A DNA stretch of 64,000 nt, taken from NCBI GenBank assembly GCA_001029735.1, contig CP011213.1, forward strand, positions 524,613 through 588,612. Reading direction: 5' to 3'. Source of the stretch: Berkelbacteria bacterium GW2011_GWE1_39_12 (GTDB taxonomy: Bacteria > Patescibacteriota > UBA1384 > UBA12157). Below, one piece after another: positions 1 through 14,272 of the stretch. A program made the translations under genes and the position numbers. Numbering within the stretch: the stretch's first letter is position 1; every line of letters begins with the position of its first letter. Below the pieces are notes generated by a model. It was not told the origin of the DNA. It saw nothing but the letters and a program-made list of their open reading frames with translations, and ran no database searches.

Positions 1-7
1 TCAAAAC

Positions 8-3000
8 ATGACTCAATATGATAATTTTAATGACAATAGTATTGATGGCGCTAAATGGACTGGCGGCGGTACTTCAAATGGTGTTACTCTGGCAGAAACT
101 GGTGGAGAAATAAAAATTTCAGGTACCAATAGCTCTGCAGGAAATATTTACCCAACTTTAAATAGTGGATATACTCCCAGCGTAGTAACTCAAGTTGCTC
201 AAGTTAAGCTTAAAACGCCAACGGCTCCTGCTTCTGTTGGCACTTTCTATGAATTTGGATTAGCCGGCGATGGTGGAGCTTTTCCAATAGAAATTCAATA
301 TACCACATCCGGCTGGCGGCTAGCGTTTTACGATCCTATAACACAATGGGCCTACACAGCATATTCGGTTATTGGTAATGAATCAACTGAGTTTAAAACC
401 TTAAAGATTGTATATAATATAAATCATCCTGCTAGCCAATCGCCTGCTCCGGTTAATACTGGCTATGCCTATGGTTATGTTTATGATGCCAATGGCACTG
501 AACATTATCTCGGTAATTTTGCCATCAAGGGTATTACTCTTGGTGATAATATTGGCGTATATCTAAAAGGTGCTGTTGGCCCGGGCGTGGCTGTTGATGG
601 TCGTTTCGATGACTTTATGTTTTATCCAGTTAGTTCTACCGTTTCTGATGATTTTGATACTCAATCGGACGGGGAAAATCCTACTGGCTGGGTGGTGGCT
701 GGTGAACCCACCAATGGTTCTATTGAAGTTGACTCGGCCCAATCATTTTCGACCTCAAATTCACTTCTACTTCTCCGCAATGTCATAAACAATTCAAATA
801 TCAATGCTAATAAGAATTTCACAGCTTTAGACGGAATCGTTTACACCTCATTTAATTTTCGTGCCGATGGTACTACGATGACAGATAAATTGTTTCAGTT
901 AAGAAACGCCAGTGGTAACGAAAAAGTGCATATGAATTTTGCGCCAGATGGCCATATTTACGCCCAATCTACGGATTGGGCAGCGGTTGATCTAGGTACA
1001 TATAGTGCAAATACATGGTATAATGTTCTAATTAAAACCGATTGCCAGAGAGAAAAGTACGACGTCTATATTAATGGTGTTTTAAAAGTTTCCAATTTAC
1101 AGGTTGTTAATACGACAAATCAAAAAACAATTAGTCGAGCCCAAATACATAACACAGGGAATCTAACATCTGGCTCAAGAAGTATATGGTTTGATAGTAT
1201 TCAAATATACAATGAATTTAAAAACATCAGTGGACTTACTGCCGCTGATGCCACTTCGGCTTCGTGGGATTCAACCGGTTGGGCAGATGGCACAAACTAT
1301 CTTGTTCGTAACCGCGCCTACAACACAACAGATAATCTCTTTGGCCCTTACGATCATTCCGATGATGTTTTTGGTTTAGTTTTAGCGCCAGCAGAGGATG
1401 TGCCCGCGACTCCTTCTGTTATTGCTCCGGCAAACAATGGGACGGGTGTCATTACTAATCCTACTGGCACTTCTTCTGATTATTCTGGGAATCCGAGCCA
1501 ATTATCTGCCTCATGGGAGATCTATGATGATGCCGGGTTGGCAGCAGAAAACTTAGTTTGGTCAAAATATGCTGATACCACAAATTTAACATCGATAGTC
1601 GTAAACAGTACTAATGGCACTTTTTCCAATTCTTTAGCTGGTCAAACTACTTTAGCTTCTGGTACTGATTATTGGATTCATGTCAGACATACTAATAGTA
1701 TTGGTGATTCTGAATGGAGTACGGCCAATAAATTCACCACCGCAATCGATGCGCCAACTGCACCGACCAACATTGGAATTAATTCCTTAACCAATGCCGG
1801 CTTTAATGCTACTTGGACAGACAATTCAACTAATGAGTCTGACTTCAAAGTTTATATTTCCACAGTTGTAGCTAATAATGATTGCCAAGATGCGGGCACG
1901 ACTTGGGGTACGGCTTCTTTAGCTGGCGGGGCTGATGTTGCAACCAAAGCAATCTCGGGCCTCACTGGAAATACTCAATACTGTGTCAAAGTAACTTCTA
2001 CGAATGTTGCTGGAGATTCTGCACCGGCATATTTGGCCATTCCAAACTACACGTTGGCCAACGTGCCAACAGCGCCAACAATTGACGCAACATCTTCAAC
2101 ATCTTTAACCACTATTATTAATATTAATTCCAATCCGGCTACAACTGAATTTGCCATTTCCTGTGATTCGGATGAAATGTTCTTAAATTACACAACCAAT
2201 GCATGCGAATCAATTGTCGATGATTCAGACCATTGGCGAACCTTTACTAATTGGGGTGATGCTTCTGGTTTTACTCAGACGGGCTTGAATGTAAATAGTT
2301 CGCACGTTTATAAAGTGATGGCGCGAAATGCCGACAAAAACAACACAAACCTTTCTGCATCTACTTCAAAATTTACCTTGTCTGATACCCCTGCTTCACC
2401 AGATGTAACAAATACGACTTTAACCACTTCTTTGGAAATCGCTATCGCCGCCGATACTAATCCGGCATCAACTGAGTTTGCTATTTCTTGTGACTCTGAC
2501 GAGGCTTTCTTAAATTACACGACCAACGCTTGCGAGACCATCGCCGATGATTCTGATCACTGGCGAACGGCTGAAGGCTGGGGCGCATTCGGTAAAACGG
2601 ATTTATTAGCCAACACCAATCATACTTATAAAGTAAAATCTCGCAACGGTGATAAAGTAGCTAGTGTGTTTTCGGTTGGATCATCTAAATATACACTGAT
2701 TGAAATACCGGTAATCAGCTTCGGCGATATTGCTTCTGCATCTATAGCTCTGACTGGCGGCACTTTATCGAACATTAATGTGGGGTCATCTGGAGTCTGG
2801 TTTGAAGAAACTTCAGGCAATACTGGTGGCGGTAATCTTGTTAATCCTGACGGTTTTGGCGCTTGGAAAACGACAAACTCAATTATTGATGCTAGCTTGG
2901 TATCGTCAACAACTTATTCATACAAAGCTAAAGCTAAAAACGGTGATGGCACAGAGACGGTTTTTTCTTCGCCTGACGCCTCACAAATAACTTCGGCTGC

Positions 3001-6000
3001 AAGTTCTCCGCCTGAAGCACCAACCATTGGTACTCCAGTCGTTGCTTCTGCTACGGCGATTGATTGGCATTTTGTAGATAATTCAACGGACGAGACTGGG
3101 TTTAAAATTTACGATGGTTCAAATAATTTAGTGGCAACTTGTGCCACGTCGAATATCTCTGTTTGTACCGAAACTGGTCTTTCTCCTAACACTCAATATT
3201 CCGGTCGTTACGTTGTTGCTTACAATGAAGCTGGTAATTCAAGTTCTTCAACTAATGCTTCAGCTGTTTATACTTTAGCTAATACTCCTTTAGCTCCGAC
3301 GGTTAATACGGTTGACAATCATCCGGGTGAATTGATAGTTGTCGTTAATACAAACTCTAACCCAGTCAATACTGTCTTTGCCATTCAAGAAACTCAAGTT
3401 TCTGGCGGTAAATATGTTCAAGCAGACGGATCTTTGAACACTTCTGCCGTGTGGCAAAATGTAGCTCAATGGGGGAACATTACCGGCGTTAATATAACAG
3501 GACTTACTGTTGATACTCAATACACTTTTAAAGTTAGAGTGAAAAATGGTGACGATGTCGAAAGTCCATCGCCTCAATTTGGTCCGACGGCACAACAAAC
3601 AACTCTTACTGCTACCACCGCTTGTAATTGGACAAATGATGGTACTAATAATCTCTGGAGCAATGAGCTCAACTGGTCTTGCGCTCATGTCCCGACCAAC
3701 GCCGATGATGCTATTCTCGATGGTGCTATCTCTAATGATAATATGACAATTGATATATCAGCCACTACCGGTTCCCTTACTATTAAAGGAACCAATCTGC
3801 CAACTGGTGGCGACACTGCGTACACCGGTACTATCACTGAAAGTGCCAATTTAACTACTGATAATACTAATACTAAGTCTGGACTCTTCTATTTTGCCGG
3901 CGGCACATACAACGCTGGTTCTCATACTATTACCGCAATGGGTAACTTTACCCTTGCAGGTGGAACTTTCAATAAGGATACCTCCACTTTGGTGATGAAG
4001 GGTACTGGCTCTGTGACAACAGGCGGACAGGCATTAAATAATCTGCAGATCTCGGCAATTAGGTCAACCTCTACATCATTCAGAAGCGAAGCACATAATG
4101 CTGTTGCGCTAAACACGGCCGGCAGCATTGATTTGACCGTGAATAAGCCTAGCGGTGTAGTATCTGGTGATATGATGATTGCGGTTTTTTCATCTGGTTC
4201 GTCGAATTTATCTACAATTTCAGTAGCATCTGGATGGAACCTGATTAGGTCTTTATCTGATGCGACTAACGGTAATTACGCTTATGCTTATTCGAAACAA
4301 GCGACTGGCAGCGAACCTTCCACTTACACATTCGGTTTTACTGGTACCGGTGGCTATGCTTGTGACATCTATGCTTATCAAGGCGGGACAGTTTCTATTG
4401 ATTCGTATTCAAGTTCATTTTACAGTATGACCGGATCCCATGATCCTATTACTCTTACGATACCGCAAATCACTACTGTCTCCACAAACACCGTACTGGT
4501 AAGCTTGTTTGTATCTAGGATGGCTGACTCGTCTACTGCGACACTTTCTACCCCTGTAGGAGGGGTAAGTAGAGCTAATTTCACTATGAGCGTACCAACT
4601 CCTACTCGCTATTTTGTCAATAGTCTAAGCGACGAGACACTTTCTGTCTCAGGCGCCACTGGTACCAGATCTAGTATTGCCAATGAATCATCGGCCTTTA
4701 GTGCCATTGGGTTTATGGTTGCGTTCGAAAATCCTCCAGTTAACTCTTCAGTTATCGCATCTGACGATCTGATTCTTTCCGGCGCTCTTACTACCGATGC
4801 TAATCAAACATTCGGAACTGGTGGCAATGCGGTTACAATTGGCGGTAATATTGCCAACTCCGGTATCTTAACAGCCAATAATTCCACCATTTATATCGCC
4901 GGAAATTACACTAATTCTGGCACTTTCACCTACGGCACTTCGACCGTTAATCTTAATGGCACTGGCGCCCAGACTTTCACTGCTGGTGGCACTGATTCTA
5001 CAAAACAGCTTTACAATTTAGTTGCGGCCAATTCTTCTGGCAATGGTATTGGTGTCACTTTTGCCGACAGTTTAACAATCAACGGTTCTTTCACCAATAC
5101 GACCATCGATTCTAAACTTACTTTCAATGCCGGTTCGACTTATACTTTCCCGATAATTGATCTCGCTGGCACTGATGGTCATACGATTTTATTGAGAAGT
5201 TCTGCATCTAGCGCCTGGAATCTAAATGTTGATGCCGATTCGGTTGTCCATTACATAGATGCCGCCTATTCAAATGCCAACCATACTATCAATGACACTG
5301 ACGGCGGAGTTGATTCGCTCAATAATACCAACTGGGTTTTTGTAAATGCCCCAACAGCCCCAACAATCGGAACACCTCAAGTGCTTTCTACAACTTCGAT
5401 TCGTTGGACATTCACAGATAATGCTTCTAATGAAACAGGTTTCAAAATTTATGATGGCACAAATACTTTGAAAGCTACTTGTGCTACGGCAAACTTAACT
5501 TATTGTGACGAGGTAGCACTTTCACCGAATACTCAATATTCCGGTCGTTATGCGGTTGCGTACAATGACGGAGGTGACTCGATTCATTCGGCCGACGCTG
5601 TTGCAAAATACACTTATATTGAAAATCCAACAGGAATGACTAATAGTGTTAACGCGACGACAATTTCAACTTCGGCAACTGGGGCACTCTCTAATTTAGG
5701 AGCTGGCCAAACAGGATTCTACTTCACTTCTAGCCAGCCTGGTTCAAATACTTGCTTCAATAACTGGATTCAAGATAATCTATGCTTGAACGATAATTTA
5801 ACGCCAAATAGTCCTTACACTTATACGGTTAAGGCAAGAAATGGTGACGGATATGAAACTGCAATATCTGATCCTGTTTCTGTCTATACCTTATCTAATA
5901 CGCCGACTGCTCCTTCTGTTTCTGCAAATTATGACGAAGCAAATGGATACTACGAAACTATTTCTATTAATGCCAATTCAAACCCGGATAACACCTTATA

Positions 6001-9000
6001 TAAGATTGTTTATGATACTGATCCGGTAGGACCCTTTGATTCTGTCTTAGAAGATTGGACAGCCCATAAGAACGGTGACACAATTACACATGCTTCAGAT
6101 CTGTTGTGTAATAGTACATATTATTACAAGGTCCAAGCCCAAAACAGCGACCATGACAATTCGAACTATAGCCCTGTAAGTTTTGACACAACTCCGCCTT
6201 GTGCTCCAATTGGTTTGCAGAATACAAACACAACTGCCACCTCAACTTTACTTGATTGGTCAGGGGAAACTGTATTGACAACGGTTTACGATGTTAGTTT
6301 TGGCACCGACACACAGGCGACCAATCTTGGAGAGACAGAAGGAACGGCAACATCGCAATTGGTTAAATCTGGTTTAAATTCTGAAACAACATACTATTTC
6401 AAAGTTAGGACGGTTAACACTAATGGCACTGGCGCCTGGAGCGGTATTGCTAACTTTACAACTCCGATCGCTGGCTCGTTATTGTTAATCGGTTTACCAG
6501 GGCAAAGCTATGTTGCTGGAACTGGTATAGTTGGCGATCCTAATCCACAAATAGCAGGTCAGTCATTTAACGGTACTGTTTACTCTGTTAACGATAATAA
6601 AATTCTTGCCTCCACAAGTGTTGAAATGGTTACTTTCTCGACTATAACGGACAGTTTAATTTCGAAATTCAATAATGGAAGTTCTGCACCGTCAGCTTCA
6701 CAAACTTTATCATCTGGACAAAAAACAGTCAGTTTTACTTTCTACCAAGCCGGCCAAAATATTATTAACATGACCGGTAGTACGGGTTCAAGTTCGCCTT
6801 TCCAAGTTAATCCGGCTGTTACTTCAACAACAGATTCTACTGTTTCCCCGTCATCGGCAAGCTTAAATGTCGGCCAGACAGCGGTCGAAACAATCACTTT
6901 GGTTGATATCTATGGAAACCTTATTTCTAATCGCGGTGTGACTGTTTCCACAAATCAAATCGGCGATATAATTTCTTTCTCTTCGACTAAGACAAACTCA
7001 AACGGACAGATCACAGCTTATATTGGATCAGGTTTTGCTCATACATCGACATTAACTATCATCGATGAAAATGGATTGACGTTGTCAACCCATCCGCAAA
7101 TTACTTTCAATAATGTAAAGCCAACATCCATCGAAAATCCAAGTAATTTTATCGGCACTGCTGGTAACTCAATCGCTTCTATAGGATGGACAAACCCAAC
7201 TTCAGTATACTTTGATCACACGGAAATATATCGTTCTCAATACGCTGGGCAATTAGGGTCAAAGATTGCTGACTCAACAGTGGACAATTCGGATAATTAC
7301 GTTGATTCTAGCTTAACTAATGGTACGACTTACTTTTACACTTTAAAATCAGTAGATGTCTACGGTAATATTTCCTCTGGGACCTATCAACTAGCGCTTA
7401 CACCAAATGCGGAAGTAGAGCCGAAATTACCAGCACCAACCAACTTACGCGCAACATTAATCAATGCAAACGAAGTAAATTTAGCTTGGGATGCCCCAGT
7501 TGGTAATTTAAGAGTCACAGGATATCATGTTTACAATGCGGATACCAATATTCAGATTGATTCGACAGTTGATGAAGCTTACCACGCAGATGGGCTGTCA
7601 CCAGAAACTACTTACCGGTTTTTCGTAATTGCTTACAACGACGCCGGTAATTCAGGCGCTTCAAATGCTGTTACCATTGTTACAAAAGCAATTACCGGTC
7701 CAACCCCTCCAGGTCCAATTTGCCACAATGGCGGTGGCAGAGTTAGCTATTTAGTCCTAGGCAACATGCCTTCCGAGGTCATTTCCGGTAATAGTTTGCC
7801 AGATAGTGTCAGTGTCAAGGTGATCGTAGCTGATGGCGGGGGACAGCTCTGCGATGGTTATCAGGGTACGATTTACTTTACTTCAACTGATGAAAAGGCT
7901 GATTTGAGATGGGATAAAACAAATAGTTACACCTTCACTAGCTTCGATGCCGGTTTACACGAGTTTGATGGCAAAGGTTTCACCTTAAGAACATTAGGCA
8001 ATCAAATAATTACAGTAACAGATGGTACTGTCTCTGGTAAGGCTGAAATCAAAGTCATTTCTAATAGATCATCTGATGTTGTTTTCTCTAAAGCTCAAGG
8101 TGTCGTTTCAGATTTTGTAAACAAAAATGCAACTAAAGTTAACACTGCCGTGGTTACTGCCACAACGGCATTATTAGTTACGCCGGCGGCAGTGAATGCG
8201 GCTATCGGTTTAGGCAACATTTTACCTCAGCTTATTTACTGGTTTACCCAATTATTGCAAATGATCGGTATTAGAAAGAAACGCAAGCCATGGGGTATAG
8301 TCTTCAACTCTCAAACCGGCCAGCCGGTCAGCCTTGCTACAGTCAAAATTTATGATAAAGAATATAATCGTTTATTAGAATCTTCTGTAACAGACAGAGA
8401 TGGTCGTTTTGGTTTCCTAGTCAGACCTGGCACTTTCTACTTAGTTTTGGCAAAAGGTGGCTTTATCTTCCCATCGCAATATAAAGTTTCCGGCTTCTTT
8501 GAAAACGTTTATACTGGTGGCAATATTAATATTGCCACCAAAGATGAGGGTGCTATCGATTTGAATATTCCATTAGATCCCCAGGCAAAAGCATCAGTCA
8601 TATTTACTTTATGGGCCAATCTAATCAAGATTAATAGATTCTTGCAAAAAATTCGCATCCCTTTAATGGCTATTGGTGTAATTTTTGCCGTAATCATGAT
8701 TATCACTAACTACAATATAATTTACGCCTTATCTTTGGCTCTTTACGGCATCCTATTCGTAATTGAATATCTACAGTCCAAGAGATCAAGACCGTATGGT
8801 GTGGTGAGCGATGTATTTGGTCATCCGTTAGCAATTTCAATCGTTAGAATTTATAGTAAGAAGACTGATCGCTTAATCGCAACAGATGTTACAGATAATC
8901 AGGGTCGTTTCAAATTTTTGGTTGTGCCTGGTATTTATTATATGACTGCAGCCAAGCCAGGCTACATCGACTTTAAGAGTCATATCATGTATCTAGAACG

Positions 9001-9055
9001 CGAACGAACGATGGTTACGACCAATATCAAACTTAAAAAGATGGATCGTCAGTAA
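8..9055 (+). CDS. Giant (>=3015 aa) cell-surface adhesin-like protein. Contains two N-terminal LamG/ConA-like jelly-roll modules, many FN3-like repeats with PTAPT linkers, beta-helix-like G/T/N-rich repeats, Big/Ig-like domains and a C-terminal membrane anchor. The ORF is open to the window's left edge with no signal peptide, so it is probably 5'-truncated.
   Basis: Single 9 kb ORF with recurrent FN3 signatures (e.g. 'PAPTNLRATLINANEVNLAWDAP...YRFFVIAYNDAGNS'). Internal long-range duplications: 'TEFAISCDSDE.FLNYTTNACE' occurs twice, and 'TGFKIYDG.N.L.ATCAT...LSPNTQYSGRY.VAYN' occurs twice. C-terminus has hydrophobic helices flanking two CarboxypepD_reg-like segments ('VKIYDKEYNRLLESSVTDRDGRFGF', 'VRIYSKKTDRLIATDVTDNQGRFKF'). 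No in-frame stop between nt 2 and the ATG at nt 8. Confidence 0.85.
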   Translation: MTQYDNFNDNSIDGAKWTGGGTSNGVTLAETGGEIKISGTNSSAGNIYPTLNSGYTPSVVTQVAQVKLKTPTAPASVGTFYEFGLAGDGGAFPIEIQYTTSGWRLAFYDPITQWAYTAYSVIGNESTEFKTLKIVYNINHPASQSPAPVNTGYAYGYVYDANGTEHYLGNFAIKGITLGDNIGVYLKGAVGPGVAVDGRFDDFMFYPVSSTVSDDFDTQSDGENPTGWVVAGEPTNGSIEVDSAQSFSTSNSLLLLRNVINNSNINANKNFTALDGIVYTSFNFRADGTTMTDKLFQLRNASGNEKVHMNFAPDGHIYAQSTDWAAVDLGTYSANTWYNVLIKTDCQREKYDVYINGVLKVSNLQVVNTTNQKTISRAQIHNTGNLTSGSRSIWFDSIQIYNEFKNISGLTAADATSASWDSTGWADGTNYLVRNRAYNTTDNLFGPYDHSDDVFGLVLAPAEDVPATPSVIAPANNGTGVITNPTGTSSDYSGNPSQLSASWEIYDDAGLAAENLVWSKYADTTNLTSIVVNSTNGTFSNSLAGQTTLASGTDYWIHVRHTNSIGDSEWSTANKFTTAIDAPTAPTNIGINSLTNAGFNATWTDNSTNESDFKVYISTVVANNDCQDAGTTWGTASLAGGADVATKAISGLTGNTQYCVKVTSTNVAGDSAPAYLAIPNYTLANVPTAPTIDATSSTSLTTIININSNPATTEFAISCDSDEMFLNYTTNACESIVDDSDHWRTFTNWGDASGFTQTGLNVNSSHVYKVMARNADKNNTNLSASTSKFTLSDTPASPDVTNTTLTTSLEIAIAADTNPASTEFAISCDSDEAFLNYTTNACETIADDSDHWRTAEGWGAFGKTDLLANTNHTYKVKSRNGDKVASVFSVGSSKYTLIEIPVISFGDIASASIALTGGTLSNINVGSSGVWFEETSGNTGGGNLVNPDGFGAWKTTNSIIDASLVSSTTYSYKAKAKNGDGTETVFSSPDASQITSAASSPPEAPTIGTPVVASATAIDWHFVDNSTDETGFKIYDGSNNLVATCATSNISVCTETGLSPNTQYSGRYVVAYNEAGNSSSSTNASAVYTLANTPLAPTVNTVDNHPGELIVVVNTNSNPVNTVFAIQETQVSGGKYVQADGSLNTSAVWQNVAQWGNITGVNITGLTVDTQYTFKVRVKNGDDVESPSPQFGPTAQQTTLTATTACNWTNDGTNNLWSNELNWSCAHVPTNADDAILDGAISNDNMTIDISATTGSLTIKGTNLPTGGDTAYTGTITESANLTTDNTNTKSGLFYFAGGTYNAGSHTITAMGNFTLAGGTFNKDTSTLVMKGTGSVTTGGQALNNLQISAIRSTSTSFRSEAHNAVALNTAGSIDLTVNKPSGVVSGDMMIAVFSSGSSNLSTISVASGWNLIRSLSDATNGNYAYAYSKQATGSEPSTYTFGFTGTGGYACDIYAYQGGTVSIDSYSSSFYSMTGSHDPITLTIPQITTVSTNTVLVSLFVSRMADSSTATLSTPVGGVSRANFTMSVPTPTRYFVNSLSDETLSVSGATGTRSSIANESSAFSAIGFMVAFENPPVNSSVIASDDLILSGALTTDANQTFGTGGNAVTIGGNIANSGILTANNSTIYIAGNYTNSGTFTYGTSTVNLNGTGAQTFTAGGTDSTKQLYNLVAANSSGNGIGVTFADSLTINGSFTNTTIDSKLTFNAGSTYTFPIIDLAGTDGHTILLRSSASSAWNLNVDADSVVHYIDAAYSNANHTINDTDGGVDSLNNTNWVFVNAPTAPTIGTPQVLSTTSIRWTFTDNASNETGFKIYDGTNTLKATCATANLTYCDEVALSPNTQYSGRYAVAYNDGGDSIHSADAVAKYTYIENPTGMTNSVNATTISTSATGALSNLGAGQTGFYFTSSQPGSNTCFNNWIQDNLCLNDNLTPNSPYTYTVKARNGDGYETAISDPVSVYTLSNTPTAPSVSANYDEANGYYETISINANSNPDNTLYKIVYDTDPVGPFDSVLEDWTAHKNGDTITHASDLLCNSTYYYKVQAQNSDHDNSNYSPVSFDTTPPCAPIGLQNTNTTATSTLLDWSGETVLTTVYDVSFGTDTQATNLGETEGTATSQLVKSGLNSETTYYFKVRTVNTNGTGAWSGIANFTTPIAGSLLLIGLPGQSYVAGTGIVGDPNPQIAGQSFNGTVYSVNDNKILASTSVEMVTFSTITDSLISKFNNGSSAPSASQTLSSGQKTVSFTFYQAGQNIINMTGSTGSSSPFQVNPAVTSTTDSTVSPSSASLNVGQTAVETITLVDIYGNLISNRGVTVSTNQIGDIISFSSTKTNSNGQITAYIGSGFAHTSTLTIIDENGLTLSTHPQITFNNVKPTSIENPSNFIGTAGNSIASIGWTNPTSVYFDHTEIYRSQYAGQLGSKIADSTVDNSDNYVDSSLTNGTTYFYTLKSVDVYGNISSGTYQLALTPNAEVEPKLPAPTNLRATLINANEVNLAWDAPVGNLRVTGYHVYNADTNIQIDSTVDEAYHADGLSPETTYRFFVIAYNDAGNSGASNAVTIVTKAITGPTPPGPICHNGGGRVSYLVLGNMPSEVISGNSLPDSVSVKVIVADGGGQLCDGYQGTIYFTSTDEKADLRWDKTNSYTFTSFDAGLHEFDGKGFTLRTLGNQIITVTDGTVSGKAEIKVISNRSSDVVFSKAQGVVSDFVNKNATKVNTAVVTATTALLVTPAAVNAAIGLGNILPQLIYWFTQLLQMIGIRKKRKPWGIVFNSQTGQPVSLATVKIYDKEYNRLLESSVTDRDGRFGFLVRPGTFYLVLAKGGFIFPSQYKVSGFFENVYTGGNINIATKDEGAIDLNIPLDPQAKASVIFTLWANLIKINRFLQKIRIPLMAIGVIFAVIMIITNYNIIYALSLALYGILFVIEYLQSKRSRPYGVVSDVFGHPLAISIVRIYSKKTDRLIATDVTDNQGRFKFLVVPGIYYMTAAKPGYIDFKSHIMYLERERTMVTTNIKLKKMDRQ

Positions 9056-9057
9056 TA

Positions 9058-9150
9058 AAAAAAGACTCTCTAGTTTTTTCTGACACCGGATCGAGACGGG
9101 GAGGGGCATCTCCATCTCGGGCCGAAGTCAGAATCCAGAAAGTCTTTTTT
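9058..9150. terminator. Long imperfect hairpin between two convergent genes. It is a probable bidirectional intrinsic terminator or structured RNA element.
   Basis: Outer 10-bp perfect inverted repeat AAAAAAGACT (9058-9067) / AGTCTTTTTT (9141-9150). Nested perfect inverted repeat TTCTGAC (9078-9084) / GTCAGAA (9127-9133). GC-rich imperfect inner stem CCGGATCGAGA...TCTCGGGCCG. A/T runs on both flanks. Confidence 0.5.
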
Positions 9151-9163
9151 GTTGCTATTTAAT

Positions 9164-10624
9164 TTACCAGTGGATGAATACAGGTGTACCGATTTCATCC
9201 CAGTTATATATCCATTCAGCATCACCATTGGAAGCATTGATACAACCATGGCTCATTGGATGACCAAAGTTATTGTGCCAATAAGTTCCATGAATTGAAT
9301 AGTCTCCGCTCCACCAGCTGATCCATTCGACATTTGGCACGCTATAACCAGGCCCATCCATAGTTTGGGAACGTGTCTTACCATAAACGGAGTAAGTACC
9401 CGTTGGGGTTGGACCAGTTTTTCCTGACGAAATTAAGAAATGGTTAACCATTGTATATCCGTCGAAAGCGTACAAGGTTTGCTCTGATAAATTAACGTCA
9501 ATATATCTACCGGCAAAACGTCCTGGCTGAGCATGAGGGTTTCTAATGATTTCAATTTTAGTAATTGGATACGTACCAATACTGATGGAATTATTATTAT
9601 TTGATTTAACTTGGTTTAACACATTATTAAGTAATTTTTCTGTATCGACACCAATACCGTCTTGTCCTTCAACCAATACTTCGCCAGTTCCTTCCATAAT
9701 TTCACGATCGATTTTTTTAACTTTAATTTTTGAAGCAACCTTATCGGTATAAGAGTTTACTTTTTGTTTTGAAAGATCGGCAACTAACTTATCGTTAACT
9801 TCCTTAAACTCAATCCAAGAGCCGATTTCACTTCTAGAAATAATATAATTATCATCTTGATAAATAAGATTGATTGGCGCTGTAGCCATTAAACTCTCGG
9901 CTTGTTTTTGTGCATCAAGAGTATCATCAGCAAATATTTTCGGTTGAAGAATAGAAGTTTTTAAAGTGATTTTCTCGTCAATTTTATTTTTAATTGCGTG
10001 TATTAAATCATTTTTAAGTACATCCTTATCAAAACCAAACCCTGGCTTTTCAGCAATTATTGAGATATTACCATTATCAATTGAAAGGCTGGCATTTTGA
10101 GCCGGTTTTTCGATTTCCTGATTGATTTTAGATAAAAAGTCATCTAATTTTGATTCGTCAACCTTCGGGCTTAAAGCGATATCGTGACCGGTAAAAATTA
10201 TTTGAGAGTTGGAGATTACTTTTTGCTTAAATGAGCCATCTCGTCCAAAATTATAAGCATCTGCTACAATCTTATCTGCATCAAAAGAAACTCCTAGTTC
10301 TGGCAGGGTAGAGTTTAGGGTTTGAGTTTCATGATTGATAGAAGGACCTTTTTTATTAATACTATCTATATAGGATAAAATAATTCTTTTAGCTTCGTCT
10401 GGAGTTTTACCCCCGATATTTATTCCGGCAACGGTTACCTTGGGTAAAATTTTTCCGTCGGTATCATTTTTAATCTTCCAGCCGGAAGCAAATAAGAGTG
10501 CCAAAATTAAAAGAACAGCTGATACTTTAGCCATCACTGCTTTGTAAGTAGAGTGTTTAATTTTTTCTGATTTATTAGTCTTGATTTTTGGTAACGCGAT
10601 TGATGGATGAATAAACTGTTGCAT
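9164..10624 (-). CDS. L,D-transpeptidase (YkuD-fold) family protein with an N-terminal membrane anchor
   Basis: C-terminal catalytic motif '...HGTYWHNNFGHPMSHGCINASNGDAEWIYNW' (conserved H/SHGC of L,D-transpeptidases). Hydrophobic anchor 'VSAVLLILALLFASGW'. Start moved to the ATG at 10624 (MQQFIHP...) because a GGAGGGG SD lies 5 nt upstream; the ORF-track start at 10696 has no RBS. Confidence 0.8.
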   Translation of the reverse strand: MQQFIHPSIALPKIKTNKSEKIKHSTYKAVMAKVSAVLLILALLFASGWKIKNDTDGKILPKVTVAGINIGGKTPDEAKRIILSYIDSINKKGPSINHETQTLNSTLPELGVSFDADKIVADAYNFGRDGSFKQKVISNSQIIFTGHDIALSPKVDESKLDDFLSKINQEIEKPAQNASLSIDNGNISIIAEKPGFGFDKDVLKNDLIHAIKNKIDEKITLKTSILQPKIFADDTLDAQKQAESLMATAPINLIYQDDNYIISRSEIGSWIEFKEVNDKLVADLSKQKVNSYTDKVASKIKVKKIDREIMEGTGEVLVEGQDGIGVDTEKLLNNVLNQVKSNNNNSISIGTYPITKIEIIRNPHAQPGRFAGRYIDVNLSEQTLYAFDGYTMVNHFLISSGKTGPTPTGTYSVYGKTRSQTMDGPGYSVPNVEWISWWSGDYSIHGTYWHNNFGHPMSHGCINASNGDAEWIYNWDEIGTPVFIHW

Positions 10625-10730
10625 TTGCCCCTCCGGCCTATTTTTTGTTTTTTTAATTTTTGAAATTTCATTTTTCAAATTATATAAGTATATCAAAAAA
10701 AATACCGTTTGTCAAGCATTGGTATTTTAG

Positions 10731-10797
10731 TGGTGCGCGCGCTTGGATTCGCCTGCGTGCCTAAAGGTAGGCATCTAGCAAGAACCGATTGTGTATA
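10731..10797 (-). repeat. Partial duplicate of the 3' half of the adjacent tRNA (anticodon loop to CCA), interrupted by a 28-nt hairpin-forming insert in the T-arm. Possible att-site scar.
   Basis: Minus-strand sequence TATACACAATCGGTTCTT + [GCTAGATGCCTACCTTTAGGCACGCAGG] + CGAATCCAAGCGCGCGCACCA reproduces the tRNA 3' half exactly, except that GGTT is replaced by the insert (TGCCTA/TAGGCA stem). It lies 12 nt from the intact tRNA. Confidence 0.6.
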
Positions 10798-10809
10798 TAA
10801 ATAGAGTAT

Positions 10810-10884
10810 TGGTGCGCGCGCTTGGATTCGAACCAAGAACCGATTGTGTATAAGACAATTGCTCTGCCGTTGAGCTACGCGCGC
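10810..10884 (-). tRNA. tRNA-Ile, anticodon UAU (reads AUA)
   Basis: Manual fold of the minus strand: acceptor GCGCGCG/CGCGCGC, U8, D-arm GCTC-AACGGCA-GAGC, anticodon stem ATTGT/ACAAT with loop C-U-UAU-A-C, T-arm CTTGG-TTCGAAT-CCAAG, discriminator A, encoded CCA. Confidence 0.75.
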
Positions 10885-11077
10885 CTTCACTATTATTTTA
10901 ACCTGTAATCATCTAAATATCAAGCTTTTCGCTTGACATCCTTTGTACTCTAGAATAATATCTGATATCTTTATTAAGTAAGCCGAATTTCGGGCCGGGA
11001 TCTTAGGTCATTTTGAGCTAGGGTCAATAAGAGTAACAGTTGTATACCGAAAGTAATTTAAAAACTGAAAGGAAAAG

Positions 11078-12412
11078 ATGAGTCAAAAATTAAAACGCTG
11101 TTTTTTAATTTTTAGTGTTACAATTTTTGCGTTAATGACTTTCTTTGCTTTTGGTTTAGATAAATCTAAAGCCGCTGAAGAAAGTGAACCACAAGTAGAT
11201 GCTTTGCCGATAGTGCAATTTTCCGATGTATCAACAACCGGTTTGGAAAACAGTCCAAGCCATCCGATCAGAGTATACCTTTCGGAAGTTGCAACTCATG
11301 ATGTAATAGTCGATTATTCGGTCATCGGTGGAACGGCAGTAGCAGGGGAAGATTATTTGTTAGAATATTATTCCCTGAAAATTAGAGAAGGTGGATCCTA
11401 TGCGGACATTAATTTAATGTTGTTAGATAATCACTTGGTTGACAAAACAAGAAATCTAACATTAGGTTTATCAGGACCGATTAACGCACAATTAGGTGAA
11501 AACGCAGAGTTTAACTTTACGATTTTAGATGATGATTCGGCCCCGGTTAGTACTTTGACGACCGTGCCTCAAGTAGCAGATGGTCAAAATGGTTGGTTTA
11601 TAACTAAACCAGAGTTTGAGATAAGTACTGATAAGATAGCAGATGTTTATTACAGAATCAACAGACAAGATTGGGTTGTTTATGCTGGACCGGTTACGGT
11701 TTTGGAAGGTATAAATTTGATTGATTATTATGCATTTGATAGTTATGGAAACATTGAGTCAATTAAAACTACTACTTTGAAGGTTGATACTGTAAAGCCT
11801 AGCATACCAAGTTTAATAGTAAAATTGGAAAGCCAAGGCGAAACAATGCAAGCTAACCTTGCTTGGCAAACAGATGAAGACTCGCAGTTTTATCAAATTT
11901 GGCGAAATGGGGTATTGATCGAAACTTTATCTGGCGAAAAAAAAAGCTTTGCTGACGAGGGACTAGTTGTTAATCAGTCTTATGAATACTATATTATTGC
12001 CATTGATCGGGCGGGTAATCAGTCGGTTTCTGGAAAGTCGACTGTTCAGTTTGCAGTGAAAGAAGTGATTAAGGAAGTAAAAGGGACGCAAACCATTGCA
12101 AAACCTTTACCTAAAGTCAGAAAATCGATCGCTAAGGGTGTCAGCACTGAAGTTACAGAAAAAGTAAGTGGTGATGAAACCAAAATTGTCGAAGAGCAAC
12201 CAGAGAAGGAATCAGTAAAAGAAAGTGATTCAAATAAAGCTAATAATCAAGGAACTAAAGAAATAAATTGGAATAGAATCTTATTACTTATCTCTGTTTT
12301 GATTATTCTTTCAGGGCTTGGTATTGGAATTTATTACGGCTATGGATGGTTTTTGTCTTCAAAAAAAACGAAAACAGTAGTAGATGAAAAAAAGTCCAAG
12401 AGTAGATGGTAA
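11078..12412 (+). CDS. Membrane-anchored surface protein with a Calx-beta-like domain, an FN3-like domain, a Lys/Glu-rich linker and a C-terminal TM helix
   Basis: N-terminal signal/TM 'CFLIFSVTIFALMTFFAFG'. Calx-beta-like 'VDYSVIGGTAVAGEDYLLEYYSLKIREGGSYADINL...FNFTILDDD'. FN3-like 'LAWQTDEDSQFYQIWRNGVLIETLSGEKKSFADEGLVVNQSYEYYIIAIDRAGNQS'. C-terminal 'LLLISVLIILSGLGIGIYYGYGWF'. SD AAAGGAAAAG precedes the ATG. Confidence 0.65.
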   Translation: MSQKLKRCFLIFSVTIFALMTFFAFGLDKSKAAEESEPQVDALPIVQFSDVSTTGLENSPSHPIRVYLSEVATHDVIVDYSVIGGTAVAGEDYLLEYYSLKIREGGSYADINLMLLDNHLVDKTRNLTLGLSGPINAQLGENAEFNFTILDDDSAPVSTLTTVPQVADGQNGWFITKPEFEISTDKIADVYYRINRQDWVVYAGPVTVLEGINLIDYYAFDSYGNIESIKTTTLKVDTVKPSIPSLIVKLESQGETMQANLAWQTDEDSQFYQIWRNGVLIETLSGEKKSFADEGLVVNQSYEYYIIAIDRAGNQSVSGKSTVQFAVKEVIKEVKGTQTIAKPLPKVRKSIAKGVSTEVTEKVSGDETKIVEEQPEKESVKESDSNKANNQGTKEINWNRILLLISVLIILSGLGIGIYYGYGWFLSSKKTKTVVDEKKSKSRW

Positions 12413-12465
12413 ACAAAAATTGCTCCTAAGTTTAAATGGGGCAATTTTTGTAATATACTAAAACC

Positions 12466-12879
12466 ATGAGAATAAAAACAGCAGACAATATAAAGAGTTA
12501 TTTCAATCAAAACGGAGGGAGATATCTTTTGATTGTTTTAGTTTTTTACACTTTTATTATGCTTGGAAAATCTGTTTGGGCTAATTTTCAGCTACAAAAA
12601 CAAACCGACCTGATTAAGGCTAAAATTGAAGAAGTAAAAACTCAAAATAATAATTTAGGGAATTTAATACTTTATTATAAATCAGATAGCTTCAGGGAAG
12701 TGGAAGCAAGACGGAAATTAGGTCTAAAAAGACCGGATGAAAAAGTTATGAATGTTCCAGTTCAAAAATTTGATAATTTTAATGCAGAAATTGAAGCACA
12801 AAAAAATAATTTAGCGCCAAAGATAATTGATACTAAATCATCCAATCCTTCCATGTGGTGGCAATACTTAACTAAATAA
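12466..12879 (+). CDS. ftsB: FtsB/DivIC-like septum-formation initiator family protein
   Basis: Single TM followed by a coiled coil and the conserved 'SFREVEARRKLGLKRPDEKV' motif (compare FtsB 'EEARFELGMVKPGE'). Confidence 0.65.
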   Translation: MRIKTADNIKSYFNQNGGRYLLIVLVFYTFIMLGKSVWANFQLQKQTDLIKAKIEEVKTQNNNLGNLILYYKSDSFREVEARRKLGLKRPDEKVMNVPVQKFDNFNAEIEAQKNNLAPKIIDTKSSNPSMWWQYLTK

Positions 12880-12967
12880 ATCAGAACTCTCTGCTTGACT
12901 TACGGCCGTTTTTGTGGTAAACTATTTTAATATCAAAAAATTGATATTAAAAACAAAAGGAAGGGTA

Positions 12968-13966
12968 ATGGGAAAAAATTTTAAAAAGTTATTGATTGGG
13001 GCAATTCTCATTATTCTTTTTGTCGGTCCGATAAAATTCGCAAACGCTGCTGTTTCTTCAAATTCATTAACCAATTTAGTAAATGCTTCAAGATCTCAAG
13101 AAGGTTTATCTCCTTTAAGTAATAACGCCAAACTTGCCGATGCTGCTTTAAAAAAAGCGCAAGACATGTTTGACAATCAATATTTTTCCCATAACTCTCC
13201 AGAAGGTAAAACTCCTTGGGATTTTTTTAAAGTTTCCGATTATGATTATGTTTATGCTGGTGAAAACTTAGCCATAGGATATACCGATTCTAATGAGCTT
13301 CACGACGCGTGGATGAATTCGCCAACTCATCGAGAAAATATAATGAATCCAAATTATCGTGAAATTGGGATCGCGTTTTTGTCAGGTGAGTATAATGGGG
13401 AAAATACCACAATTGTTGTTCAAACGTTTGGTTCTATGTCCGCAATCCAGCCGGCCAGTCAACTAAAAACTGTTTCTGCTTCAGAAATAAATAAAGAATC
13501 TGGGGCAGTAAACTCTTTTGAAATCTTGAACGATGGTACTTCTTTTACCCCAACGAAAATTTTTCAAAATGACAGTGTTGATTTTAAAGTTGCAATTAAG
13601 GGTGACGCTAAGGATGTTTATATAATGGTAGGTGATCAAAAAATTGATTTAAAAAACATTTTATTACTAGCCGATGGTTCAGTTAAAAATTTATCTAAGA
13701 CTGTAAAAATAGAAAACGCTGGTAAACTAAATGTTGCGTTAACTGTAACTGATCATAATAATGAACAAGAGGTAAAGGATCTTGGCATTTTAGAGGTAAA
13801 TTCAGTTGTTGTCGCAAATGCTGGCACAAACCGTTCGATTACTGCTGCCACTTTTAATAATATAATCGATCATCTTAGCCTCTACCTGTCTGGAACCTTT
13901 TTCCTGATATTGATGATCGCTTTGTATTTTCTCTTTGTTCGTCAACGATATGGAAAATTTATATAA
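12968..13966 (+). CDS. CAP/SCP (YkwD-like) domain protein with a signal peptide, a beta-rich C-terminal extension and a C-terminal TM anchor
   Basis: CAP-domain signature 'FSHNSPEGKTPWDFF...YAGENLAIGYTDSNELHDAWMNSPTHRENIMNPNYREIGIA'. Start set to the ATG at 12968, which has an AAGGAAGGG SD; the upstream ORF-track start has no RBS. Confidence 0.75.
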   Translation: MGKNFKKLLIGAILIILFVGPIKFANAAVSSNSLTNLVNASRSQEGLSPLSNNAKLADAALKKAQDMFDNQYFSHNSPEGKTPWDFFKVSDYDYVYAGENLAIGYTDSNELHDAWMNSPTHRENIMNPNYREIGIAFLSGEYNGENTTIVVQTFGSMSAIQPASQLKTVSASEINKESGAVNSFEILNDGTSFTPTKIFQNDSVDFKVAIKGDAKDVYIMVGDQKIDLKNILLLADGSVKNLSKTVKIENAGKLNVALTVTDHNNEQEVKDLGILEVNSVVVANAGTNRSITAATFNNIIDHLSLYLSGTFFLILMIALYFLFVRQRYGKFI

Positions 13967-14038
13967 TTAAATCTTGATTTATTGCTCTAATGCTGATAGA
14001 ATAACTATGATAAGTAATTTTAGTATTCTTATTTTTGT

Positions 14039-14113
14039 CGCGGGGTGGAGAAGTGGCATCTCACCAGGCTCATAACCTGGGGATCGGCGGTTCGAGTCCG
14101 CCCCCCGCTACCA
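14039..14113 (+). tRNA. Initiator tRNA-fMet (CAU)
   Basis: CGCGGGGTGGAG...CTCATAA...GGTTCGAGTCCGCCCCCCGCTACCA. The 1:72 position is C:U unpaired, the 5' end 'CGCGGGGUGGAG' matches E. coli tRNA-fMet, and the anticodon is CAU. Confidence 0.8.
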
Positions 14114-14128
14114 TTTTTATTTTTAAAT

Positions 14129-14203
14129 GGCTGAGTAGCTCAGTGGTAGAGCAGCAGACTCATAAGCTGTTGGTCGGTGGTTCAAATCCACCCTCAGCCA
14201 CCA
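14129..14203 (+). tRNA. tRNA-Met (CAU), elongator type. tRNA-Ile2 (lysidine) cannot be excluded from sequence alone.
   Basis: GGCTGAG-TA-GCTC-AGTGGTA-GAGC...CTCATAA...GGTGG-TTCAAAT-CCACC-CTCAGCC-A-CCA. Anticodon CAU with a fully paired acceptor stem. Confidence 0.7.
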
Positions 14204-14272
14204 TCTGTTAAAACTGAGATTTACTCAGAAAAAAATTGTAAAATTAACTTTTATATAATAAGGAATTTCTTA

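What the first reader, a model, noticed from the sequence alone, without database searches (positions are those of the whole stretch)
8..9055. Giant surface protein with an atypical C-terminal anchor: TM helices alternating with two CarboxypepD_reg-like domains
The ORF is at least 3015 aa and probably continues upstream of the window, since it lacks a signal peptide and has no upstream stop. It combines LamG-like, FN3, beta-helix, Big/Ig and unknown modules. It ends with TM helix(es), a CarboxypepD_reg-like beta-sandwich, 2-3 TM helices, and a second CarboxypepD_reg-like domain. Such anchoring differs from LPXTG, S-layer homology or autotransporter mechanisms. Long-range internal duplications (~2.3 kb apart) indicate ongoing repeat turnover, and this may make the gene prone to assembly collapse. 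Giant adhesin-like proteins are thought to mediate host attachment in episymbiotic CPR bacteria.
Basis: partly seen in the sequence, partly recalled or inferred. Interest (0 to 1): 0.6.

Follow-up and report, generated by a model that had tools for sequence, protein, structure and literature searches.

The report
Giant surface protein, conserved membrane-anchor cassette
This is the last 3,015 residues of a 3,333-residue cell-surface protein of a Berkelbacteria (candidate phyla radiation) genome, and its tail is a conserved but apparently undescribed membrane-anchor cassette that many Patescibacteria attach to surface proteins of very different sizes.

Summary
Window 8..9055 (+) is one ORF, open at the 5' edge. 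It is 100% identical to residues 319-3333 of AKM82385.1 from Berkelbacteria GW2011_GWE1_39_12, which GenBank names "cellulose 1,4-beta-cellobiosidase" without support.

The 318 missing residues carry a conserved ~55-aa leader, a transmembrane (TM) helix and an AxA-like site.

The C-terminal ~320 aa form a cassette:
- a long uncharged helix followed by RKKRK
- a CarboxypepD_reg sandwich
- a cationic amphipathic helix
- a tight TM hairpin followed by KRSR
- a second CarboxypepD_reg sandwich

A profile of the cassette finds 2,595 protein clusters at E<=1e-30. It sits at the C-terminal end of proteins of 328-6,018 aa, and every named hit is Patescibacteria. No Pfam or NCBIfam model covers it, and I found no paper on it.

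AlphaFold2 (pLDDT 89) and family-wide charge statistics place the passenger outside the cell and both sandwiches on the cytoplasmic face. This topology is inferred, not shown.

The internal duplications are real but old (72% DNA identity). The identical protein lies on six contigs, so assembly collapse or chimerism is unlikely.

Host adhesion is untested. Conserved synteny with cell-wall and division genes makes an envelope-structural role a serious rival.

The parts
1..9055 (+). 3' 9,048 nt of a 10,002-nt gene (codons 319-3333 plus stop). The ATG at nt 8 is an internal Met; the true start lies 954 nt upstream of nt 8, outside the window.
   Evidence: 100% identity to P0161 aa 319-3333. L010 full gene 6001..16002; window nt 1 = L010 6948.
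8..1222 (+). Two N-proximal beta-rich domains (aa 1-405), possibly jelly-roll/LamG-like. Only a sub-threshold Sialidase-like_CBM match at aa 282-365.
   Evidence: 23.2 bits vs GA 27. 43% identical to the Woykebacteria orthologue over aa 1-901.
1424..3604 (+). Array of seven FN3-like units (aa 473-1199).
3605..5356 (+). No family match.
   Evidence: no hits; sequence
5357..6463 (+). Array of four FN3-like units (aa 1784-2152).
3076..3228 (+). Copy 1 of the long-range internal duplication. Its partner is 5416-5568, 2,340 nt away, at 72% nt identity.
5416..5568 (+). Copy 2 of the long-range internal duplication.
6848..7108 (+). Ig-like domain with a sub-threshold Big_1 match (aa 2281-2367).
   Evidence: 23.9 bits vs GA 34.9. 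Relatives P0019 and P0166 carry a precomputed PF02369 (Big_1) hit.
7433..7687 (+). FN3 domain (aa 2476-2560), the best Pfam fn3 stretch.
7700..8077 (+). Membrane-proximal beta-rich domain (aa ~2565-2690), aligned with the equivalent region of relatives P0001 and P0008. No family assignment.
   Evidence: alignment (columns 26-180)
8087..8128 (+). Juxtamembrane amphipathic helix (aa 2694-2707).
   Evidence: AF2 helix 2-15; periodic hydrophobic/charged profile in 77 family members
8138..8272 (+). R1: 45 uncharged residues (aa 2711-2755) with conserved Pro at 2714, 2726 and 2740. AF2 predicts one 40-residue helix. Inferred stop-transfer membrane span.
8273..8287 (+). Polybasic junction RKKRK (aa 2756-2760; 78-97% K/R across the family), followed by invariant W2762-G2763.
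8291..8581 (+). CarboxypepD_reg / transthyretin-like beta-sandwich 1 (aa 2762-2858), ending in the invariant NIPLDP motif.
8597..8659 (+). Cationic amphipathic helix (aa 2864-2884; the wider stretch 2859-2884 has family mean net charge +3.5), continuous with TM2.
8660..8707 (+). TM2 (aa 2885-2900).
8708..8716 (+). Three-residue hairpin turn (aa 2901-2903). Its length is invariant in 77 of 77 members and it carries almost no charge.
8717..8773 (+). TM3 (aa 2904-2922).
8774..8791 (+). Second basic junction QSKRSR (aa 2923-2928), followed by P-(W/Y)-G.
8795..9037 (+). CarboxypepD_reg / transthyretin-like beta-sandwich 2 (aa 2930-3010). A 5-aa tail and the stop codon at 9053-9055 follow.
9164..10696 (-). 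Convergent neighbour: an L,D-transpeptidase (PG_binding_4 + YkuD). It is syntenic with the giant gene in most orthologous loci. Context only, not shown to be a functional partner.

Best explanation
The ORF is the 3' 90% of the gene for a 3,333-aa membrane-anchored cell-surface protein of Berkelbacteria GW2011_GWE1_39_12.

Shown:
- The full-length protein starts 318 aa upstream with a conserved ~55-aa segment, one strongly hydrophobic helix and an AxA-like motif.
- Then come ~2,600 aa of beta-rich modules: two jelly-roll-like domains, 12 FN3-like units, an unassigned Gly/Thr-rich region, and Ig-like domains.
- It ends in a ~320-aa cassette that recurs at the C-terminal end of hundreds to thousands of Patescibacteria protein clusters with unrelated passengers.

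Inferred mechanism:
1. The N-terminal leader drives Sec export. It is probably cut at the AxA site, which would leave the jelly-roll domains at the distal tip.
2. The passenger is threaded out until the uncharged helix R1 followed by RKKRK acts as a stop-transfer signal.
3. Everything after R1 stays on the cytoplasmic side. That is sandwich 1, a cationic amphipathic helix lying on the inner leaflet, a TM2-turn-TM3 hairpin that dips into the membrane, the KRSR junction and sandwich 2.
4. The result is a three-helix membrane bundle clamped by two folded transthyretin-like domains pressed against the inner face. This is a non-covalent 'rivet' that holds a long extracellular fibre without sortase, SLH domains or an outer membrane.

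What the fibre binds (host cell, own wall or S-layer) is unknown.
For: Identity and completeness:
- 100% identity to P0161 aa 319-3333.
- L010 holds the full gene with an upstream in-frame stop, and matches the window with 0 mismatches over 15,055 nt.
- The same product is on six contigs.

Leader:
- It is conserved in the L001, L007 and L008 orthologues and nine other giant proteins.
- The only strongly hydrophobic N-terminal segment is full-length aa 65-83.

Cassette:
- Two CarboxypepD_reg stretches score above Pfam's cut-off.
- Foldseek matches the human carboxypeptidase D transthyretin-like domain (TM-score 0.79 normalised to the target, rmsd 2.5).
- The profile search gives 13,561 hits at E<=1e-3 and 2,595 at E<=1e-30. 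In the top 150, 76 are single full-length matches near the C-terminus of proteins of 328-6,018 aa.
- Across all 255 proteins collected, 139 carry a full cassette.
- All named hits are Patescibacteria.

Topology:
- AF2 with 96 sequences (pLDDT 89.3) gives R1 as one continuous helix and TM2/TM3 as a hairpin with a 3-residue turn. Reading that secondary structure, the passenger would lie opposite sandwich 1, and both sandwiches on the same side.
- In 77 family members the mean net charge is +4.5 after R1, +3.5 before TM2 and +2.9 after TM3. It is ~0 in the turn and -0.5 before R1. By the positive-inside rule (established knowledge) the sandwiches are cytoplasmic.
- Members with ordinary N-terminal signal peptides, and one with only a Ser/Thr/Pro linker as passenger, fit the same scheme.
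Against: - Topology is inferred only. No dedicated topology predictor or experiment was available.
- CarboxypepD_reg/transthyretin-like sandwiches in known surface proteins are almost always extracytoplasmic (Cna-B, SpaA, SdrD, NOMO; one search hit list).
- R1 is only marginally hydrophobic in this protein (Hessa-scale sum 4.1) and contains conserved prolines. It could be a re-entrant or non-spanning segment.
- AF2 confidence in R1 is lower (70-81) than elsewhere.
- Leader cleavage, the 'rivet' function and any adhesin activity have no direct evidence.
Confidence: 0.6

Rival explanations
1. Same protein and same anchor, but with the opposite sidedness. R1 is a helical hairpin or does not span the membrane, and both CarboxypepD_reg sandwiches are extracellular membrane-proximal stalk domains. 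Only the helices hold the protein in the membrane.
For: - Structural neighbours of the sandwiches are extracellular stalk domains such as pilins, SdrD, Cna-B and NOMO.
- R1 is 39-45 uncharged residues with conserved Pro/Gly/Asn near its middle, long enough for a hairpin.
- R1 is weakly hydrophobic.
Against: - It would place about 12 conserved Lys/Arg on the outer face and none inside, against the positive-inside rule.
- AF2 with a deep alignment draws R1 as one unbroken 40-residue helix.
- The tight, invariant 3-residue uncharged turn between TM2 and TM3 looks like the translocated side.
Confidence: 0.22
2. The protein is a core envelope-structural component, such as an S-layer-like or wall-associated scaffold. 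It would not be a host adhesin. The cassette would then tie the envelope layer to the membrane.
For: - The orthologous group keeps synteny with cell-wall and division genes across lineages. The L,D-transpeptidase neighbour is present in about 20 of the 25 related loci that hold usable downstream sequence, often with DivIC and CAP. FtsH and MurJ lie nearby in the window.
- The N-proximal 'head' is 43% identical to the Woykebacteria orthologue over ~900 aa. That is similar to the neighbouring housekeeping genes and is not hypervariable.
Against: - There is no S-layer family match.
- Synteny among related lineages can be inherited without functional linkage.
- More distant cassette proteins lack these neighbours (L002, L011, L012).
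- This rival concerns the passenger's role and is compatible with the anchoring mechanism.
Confidence: 0.3
3. The giant ORF is an assembly artefact: a chimeric or collapsed repeat region.
For: The protein is modular and repetitive, with 12 FN3-like units.
Against: - The identical 3,333-aa product is on six contigs, two of them in the 0.2-1 Mb class.
- The window matches an independent ENA assembly with 0 mismatches over 15 kb.
- Internal DNA repeats are at most 79% identical over at most 153 nt, and there are no tandem repeats.
- Orthologues of 2,431-3,295 aa with the same N-terminal leader and C-terminal cassette occur on other contigs, one of them a 929-kb chromosome record.
Confidence: 0.02
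4. It is a secreted cellulase, as GenBank and UniRef name it ('cellulose 1,4-beta-cellobiosidase').
For: The source annotation. A weak NCBIfam match to exoglucanase CbhB.
Against: - The CbhB match is 34 bits against a cut-off of 1,950. It covers only model positions 713-890, over protein aa 2382-2563, which includes the best Pfam fn3 unit (aa 2476-2557).
- No glycoside-hydrolase domain was found by Pfam, NCBIfam or PDB sequence search in any segment.
Confidence: 0.03

Closest known systems
LPXTG/sortase-anchored adhesins of Gram-positive bacteria (MSCRAMMs, SdrD, pilins)
   Same: - N-terminal export signal, distal binding-type domains and a stalk of Ig/FN3/Cna-B-like sandwiches.
- A C-terminal hydrophobic segment followed by a basic cluster.
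- The cassette sandwiches resemble Cna-B/SpaA/SdrD-B folds.
   Different: - No LPXTG motif.
- The hydrophobic-plus-basic element is not at the C-terminus; about 260 more residues follow it (sandwich, hairpin, sandwich).
- The anchor is presumably non-covalent and in the membrane, not covalent to peptidoglycan.
Type I membrane proteins with transthyretin-like ectodomains (NOMO of the BOS complex, FAM171; archaeal S-layer stalk SlaB)
   Same: Transthyretin-like/Ig-like sandwiches combined with C-terminal transmembrane anchoring. Weak Pfam (NOMO, FAM171) and Foldseek (9c7u_B, 8qox_B) similarities.
   Different: In those proteins the sandwiches lie before a single TM helix and are luminal or extracellular. 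Here two sandwiches are interleaved with three helices, and charge bias puts them on the cytoplasmic side.
NikL/HI1622-type small membrane proteins with a CarboxypepD_reg domain
   Same: A CarboxypepD_reg-like domain joined directly to a membrane helix. Weak NCBIfam match (E=4.8e-5, 23 bits).
   Different: The score is far below the cut-off of 100. Those proteins have one domain, no passenger and a transporter context.
Other giant bacterial surface proteins (Apilactobacillus kunkeei Giant1-5, PMC12863079; Omnitrophota giant genes, bioRxiv 10.1101/2023.11.21.568195)
   Same: Multi-thousand-residue extracellular proteins in small genomes or uncultivated lineages. This is judged from titles and abstracts only.
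   Different: I did not read these papers for their anchoring, so no anchor comparison is made. The cassette defined here returned only Patescibacteria-named relatives.

Membership tests
CarboxypepD_reg (Pfam PF13620) / transthyretin-like fold | HMM score above Pfam's gathering cut-off | tested here: met
   51.5 bits against 32.3, two stretches in the last 324 aa.
CarboxypepD_reg (Pfam PF13620) / transthyretin-like fold | Seven-stranded transthyretin-like beta-sandwich | tested here: met
   AF2 pLDDT above 90 over most of both domains. Foldseek match to 5aq0_A with TM-score 0.79 (normalised to the target) and rmsd 2.5 A.
Fibronectin type III domain proteins | fn3 HMM matches above cut-off | tested here: met
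   E=2e-36, 124.5 bits, 5 stretches. 12 units found with a self-trained HMM.
LPXTG sortase substrates | LPXTG-type motif, then a hydrophobic stretch and a short basic tail at the extreme C-terminus | tested here: not met
   No LPxT[GAS]/NPxTG match anywhere in the protein. About 260 folded residues follow the hydrophobic-plus-basic element.
SLH-domain wall-anchored proteins | SLH domain(s) | tested here: not met
   No SLH family among the Pfam hits at E<=0.1-1.
Autotransporters (type V secretion) | C-terminal outer-membrane beta-barrel translocator | tested here: not met
   The C-terminus consists of alpha-helical TM segments and beta-sandwiches. No autotransporter family hit.
Cellobiohydrolase CbhB (the GenBank/UniRef product name) | NCBIfam equivalog score at or above 1,950, and a glycoside-hydrolase catalytic domain | tested here: not met
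   34.2 bits, limited to model positions 713-890 over protein aa 2382-2563, which contains the best fn3 unit. No GH domain in any segment.
Patescibacterial C-terminal cassette (unnamed; defined here) | Order: uncharged helix, polybasic + WG, sandwich ending NIPLDP, cationic amphipathic helix, TM, 3-residue turn, TM, basic + (W/Y)G, sandwich, located at or near the C-terminus | tested here: met
   The window protein was part of the seed alignment, so its match is by construction. Independent members share every element.
Patescibacterial C-terminal cassette (unnamed; defined here) | Sandwiches located on the cytoplasmic face | not testable with these tools
   Inferred from charge bias and AF2 helix continuity. 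Needs a topology predictor or reporter fusions.
Giant-protein N-terminal leader (unnamed; defined here) | Conserved 'LDxxIxxIQKSTRTxVPAxLPLHDxLRQ+FxWYYxWS' segment + TM + AA(T/S) | tested here: met
   Present in the full-length protein (P0161 / L010 6001-6290), outside the window. Absent from the window itself.

The most novel reading that the evidence does not exclude
The cassette, together with the conserved cytoplasmic N-terminal leader of the giant members, is a Patescibacteria-specific transmembrane coupling device and not a passive anchor. Two cytoplasmic transthyretin-like domains would link a giant extracellular fibre to cytoplasmic partners. In some relatives, long charged tails with recurrent 'PWELxxLxK' motifs and a C-terminal 'IFG' would add to that link. 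The cell would then sense or transmit contact or tension, in the manner of an integrin. These organisms lack an outer membrane and appear to lack the usual wall-anchoring signals on these proteins.
Probability: 0.15. Interest if true: 0.8.

Novelty: new variant of a known kind. Interest (0 to 1): 0.5.

Why it matters
- Cultivated Patescibacteria live attached to other cells, and Tn-seq in a Saccharibacterium showed that epibiotic growth needs multiple adhesins (PMC10633639). I did not find a description of how this group anchors such surface proteins.
- This analysis defines a recurrent anchoring cassette with no Pfam or NCBIfam model, found only in Patescibacteria among named hits, and a matching leader on the giant members.
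- A profile of the cassette could flag membrane-anchored surface proteins in patescibacterial genomes.
- It also corrects a misleading 'cellobiohydrolase' annotation.
- If the cytoplasmic location of the two sandwiches is confirmed, this would be an unusual use of a normally extracellular fold. It would also open the question of what these domains bind inside the cell.

Tried and rejected
- Exact look-up of the 3,015-aa product found nothing, because the true product is longer.
- Exact DNA searches with the first 60 nt of the window found nothing in genome contigs or metagenome contigs. The source was instead identified through a 90%-identity cluster member.
- The first AF2 run with 14 sequences was too weak in the helices (pLDDT 56-65) to use for topology. 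It was repeated with 96 sequences.
- The word-index search with the leader returned only five short fragments, so the leader's wider distribution is unknown.
With A1 it returned only close orthologues, so neighbourhood analysis does not cover distant cassette proteins.
- 'Stand-alone' cassette genes were examined. P0075 is a mis-called start of a 428-aa ORF with a signal anchor. P0097 directly follows, and overlaps, a 997-aa passenger ORF. The Woykebacteria split (L001) lies just after runs of X in the translation (sequence gaps).
- Literature searches for the cassette (CarboxypepD_reg + CPR/Patescibacteria, large surface proteins) found no description.
- The beta-helix and LamG assignments could not be confirmed by sequence methods.

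Full report
**What is in the window.** Positions 8..9055 (+) form one reading frame of 3,015 codons ending in TAA TAA. The seven bases before the ATG read Gln-Asn in frame with no stop, so the ORF is open at the window edge.

Kyte-Doolittle scanning finds no hydrophobic segment in the first ~2,700 residues. It finds two clusters near the end, at aa 2711-2755 and 2878-2924.

Pfam results:
- fn3: E=2e-36, five stretches.
- CarboxypepD_reg: 51.5 bits against a cut-off of 32.3, two stretches in the last 324 residues.
- Sialidase-like CBM (aa 282-365): below threshold.
- Big_1 (aa ~2281-2367): below threshold.

An HMM trained iteratively on the protein itself finds 12 FN3-like units, arranged as 7 + 4 + 1. 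That call remains unverified.

**Where it comes from and where it starts.** The window protein is 100% identical over all 3,015 residues to aa 319-3333 of P0161. P0161 is AKM82385.1 / UniRef100_A0A0G4B464 from Berkelbacteria bacterium GW2011_GWE1_39_12.

An independent ENA contig (L010) holds the whole gene at 6001..16002.
- Window nt 1 corresponds to L010 6948.
- The two sequences have 0 mismatches over 15,055 nt.
- An in-frame stop lies two codons upstream of the ATG.

The identical product is recorded on six contigs. Chimerism or collapse is very unlikely.

The database name 'cellulose 1,4-beta-cellobiosidase' rests on nothing I can find. The NCBIfam CbhB match is 34 bits against a cut-off of 1,950 and covers aa 2382-2563, a stretch that contains the best fn3 unit. 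No hydrolase domain appears in any segment.

**The missing N-terminus.** Full-length orthologues occur in Woykebacteria (L001), on a 929-kb Berkelbacteria chromosome record (L007, 2,431 aa) and in a MAG labelled Saccharibacteria (L008, 3,295 aa). Nine further giant proteins are related.

All begin with a strongly conserved ~45-55-aa segment (consensus sLDxxIxxIQKSTRTxVPAxLPLHDiLRQkFxWYYxWS). One hydrophobic helix follows, and 8-12 residues later a conserved AA(T/S). On a Hessa-type scale (values recalled from memory) this helix, TM2 and TM3 are the only three segments of the whole 3,333-aa protein with a 19-mer sum below 1.

Neither Pfam nor NCBIfam knows the leader. In my sample, all 12 complete proteins with the leader also carry the C-terminal cassette. 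The 11 of them with a single full-length cassette match are large, with a median of 3,333 aa against 764 aa for cassette proteins with ordinary signal peptides. I read the leader as an extended signal peptide that signal peptidase probably cuts. That is inference.

**The C-terminal cassette.** An alignment of 77 family members and AF2 with a 96-sequence alignment (mean pLDDT 89.3) give the same anatomy:
- A short amphipathic helix (aa 2694-2707).
- R1 (aa 2711-2755): ~45 residues with essentially no charged residue, with conserved prolines, and drawn by AF2 as one 40-residue helix.
- Five consecutive basic columns (78-97% K/R), then invariant Trp-Gly.
- Sandwich 1 (aa 2762-2858), ending in the invariant NIPLDP.
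- A cationic amphipathic helix running straight into TM2 (aa 2885-2900).
- A turn of exactly three residues in 77 of 77 members.
- TM3 (aa 2904-2922), then a second basic cluster and (W/Y)-Gly.
- Sandwich 2 (aa 2930-3010).

The two junction-plus-sandwich units are 43% identical to each other, so the cassette is itself an old duplication. Foldseek confirms the transthyretin-like/carboxypeptidase-D regulatory fold (5aq0_A: TM-score 0.79 normalised to the target, rmsd 2.5 A). It finds no solved structure with the whole arrangement.

**How common it is.** A profile of the cassette was searched against 1.84 billion representative proteins. It gave 13,561 hits at E<=1e-3 and 2,595 at E<=1e-30. Some high scorers are simply long arrays of CarboxypepD_reg repeats.

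Among the top 150, 76 show one full-length match near the C-terminus of proteins of 328-6,018 aa. Across all 255 proteins collected, 139 carry the full cassette. Passengers include FN3, Big_1, Big_5, PKD, FG-GAP/VCBS, DUF11, cohesin and ChW domains. One member has almost no passenger, only a signal anchor and a Ser/Thr/Pro linker.

Every hit that carries an organism name is Patescibacteria: Berkelbacteria, Woykebacteria, Uhrbacteria, Parcubacteria or 'Patescibacteria group'. One 8-kb contig is binned as Thermoguttaceae. Its match statistics equal those of a Patescibacteria contig, so it is probably mis-binned. Sources name these proteins only 'carboxypeptidase regulatory-like domain-containing' or hypothetical. 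Four literature searches found no description of the architecture.

**Topology and mechanism (inferred).** Across the family the mean net charge is:
- -0.5 before R1
- +4.5 right after R1
- +3.5 in the helix before TM2
- ~0 in the three-residue turn
- +2.9 after TM3

By the positive-inside rule the flanks of the TM2/TM3 hairpin, and hence both sandwiches, face the cytoplasm. R1 is then the single stop-transfer span separating them from the exported passenger. AF2's unbroken R1 helix and tight hairpin fit this sidedness, although I could not inspect coordinates.

The weak points are these:
- R1 is only marginally hydrophobic (sum 4.1 here; family median 2.4). Its most hydrophobic window is in its N-terminal third.
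- Such sandwiches are normally extracellular.

I therefore put about 0.6-0.7 on the cytoplasmic model and about 0.2 on the all-outside alternative. Functionally I commit to a non-covalent anchor. Three membrane helices are clamped by two folded domains on the inner face, which would resist extraction of a long fibre.

**Repeats.** The '2.3 kb apart' duplication is real: nt 3076-3228 against 5416-5568, at 72% nucleotide and 67.5% amino-acid identity. It is specific to this lineage. The closest repeat is 79% identical over 110 nt, and there are no tandem repeats. This records past domain shuffling, as do orthologue lengths of 2,431-3,333 aa. It is not a present assembly hazard.

**Role of the passenger.** Nothing tested here shows adhesion. 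The general idea that Patescibacteria need protein adhesins has experimental support in Saccharibacteria (PMC10633639).

Two observations point to a conserved envelope component as a rival to a fast-evolving host adhesin:
- This orthologous group keeps a convergent L,D-transpeptidase neighbour in about 20 of the 25 related loci that hold usable downstream sequence. DivIC and CAP genes are often there too, and FtsH and MurJ lie nearby in the window.
- Its N-proximal 900 aa are 43% identical between Berkelbacteria and Woykebacteria, which is no more diverged than the neighbouring genes.

**Verdict.** The gene itself is already public but misnamed. What appears to be new is the recognition of a Patescibacteria-wide C-terminal anchoring cassette, its probable inside-facing sandwiches, and its pairing with a conserved leader on the giant members.

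Noticed in passing
L010 6001-6290 (upstream of the window; the same gene): A conserved ~90-aa N-terminal leader (LDxxIxxIQKSTRTxVPAxLPLHDxLRQ+FxWYYxWS + TM + AA[TS]) with no Pfam or NCBIfam model. In my sample every complete protein that has it also has the C-terminal cassette, and these proteins are large (1,435-6,018 aa).
   Followed up: partly
L010 4993-5742 (just upstream of the full-length gene, outside the window): A heliorhodopsin gene (Pfam E=1.9e-103) sits 258 nt upstream of the giant gene on the same strand. A GT4-family glycosyltransferase precedes it.
   Followed up: no
window 9164-10696 (-): An L,D-transpeptidase (PG_binding_4 + YkuD) converges on the giant gene. This arrangement is kept in most orthologous loci even where the transpeptidase is only 32-56% identical. 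Whether it acts on the giant protein (as E. coli Ldts attach Lpp to peptidoglycan) is unknown.
   Followed up: partly
family members P0044, P0139, P0140, P0159, P0097, P0105, P0121, P0143 and others (tails after the second sandwich): 47 of 184 cassette proteins have tails of 40 aa or more after the second sandwich. The tails are charged and Pro-rich, and 41 of the 47 have no further TM-like segment. Six carry a 'WEL..L' motif (seen as (K/V)PWELxxLxK) and eight end in '...IFG' or 'KFG'. The window protein has only a 5-aa tail.
   Followed up: partly
L011 15-4245: A 997-aa passenger (cohesin, Big_5, ending in a CSDGxDNDGDGxxDxxDPGC motif) and a 414-aa cassette protein lie in overlapping ORFs (ATGATGAATGA). 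This is either a genuine two-gene version of the system or a frameshift.
   Followed up: partly
L004 7375-7640: A bAvd gene (accessory protein of diversity-generating retroelements) lies about 6 kb from a cassette-bearing gene in a Patescibacteria contig.
   Followed up: no
L007 1626-3512 (-): In the Berkelbacteria chromosome record, a TMEM260/PMT-like protein O-mannosyltransferase with TPR repeats is transcribed divergently from the giant orthologue. The passengers are Ser/Thr-rich, so O-glycosylation is conceivable.
   Followed up: no
window 10810-10884 (-), 14039-14203 (+): A tRNA-Ile with anticodon TAT lies next to the transpeptidase gene. Two adjacent tRNA-Met(CAT) genes lie 16 nt apart; ARAGORN's end of the second (14203) overlaps the listed GTG start (14177) of the FtsH ORF.
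   Followed up: no
window 16145-17269 and 17274-18290 (+): Two adjacent ORFs (374 and 338 aa) each have only a sub-threshold EF-hand_8 match near the C-terminus. They may be tandem paralogues of unknown function with a Ca-binding or dockerin-like tail.
   Followed up: no
L005 versus L006: An 8.2-kb contig binned as Thermoguttaceae carries a cassette match with statistics identical to a Patescibacteria contig from the same SPRUCE study. It is probably mis-binned.
   Followed up: no
window 1-8000: The giant gene is slightly GC-richer (0.41-0.43) than most of the window (0.33-0.40). This may reflect its Thr/Ala/Gly/Ser-rich composition.
   Followed up: no
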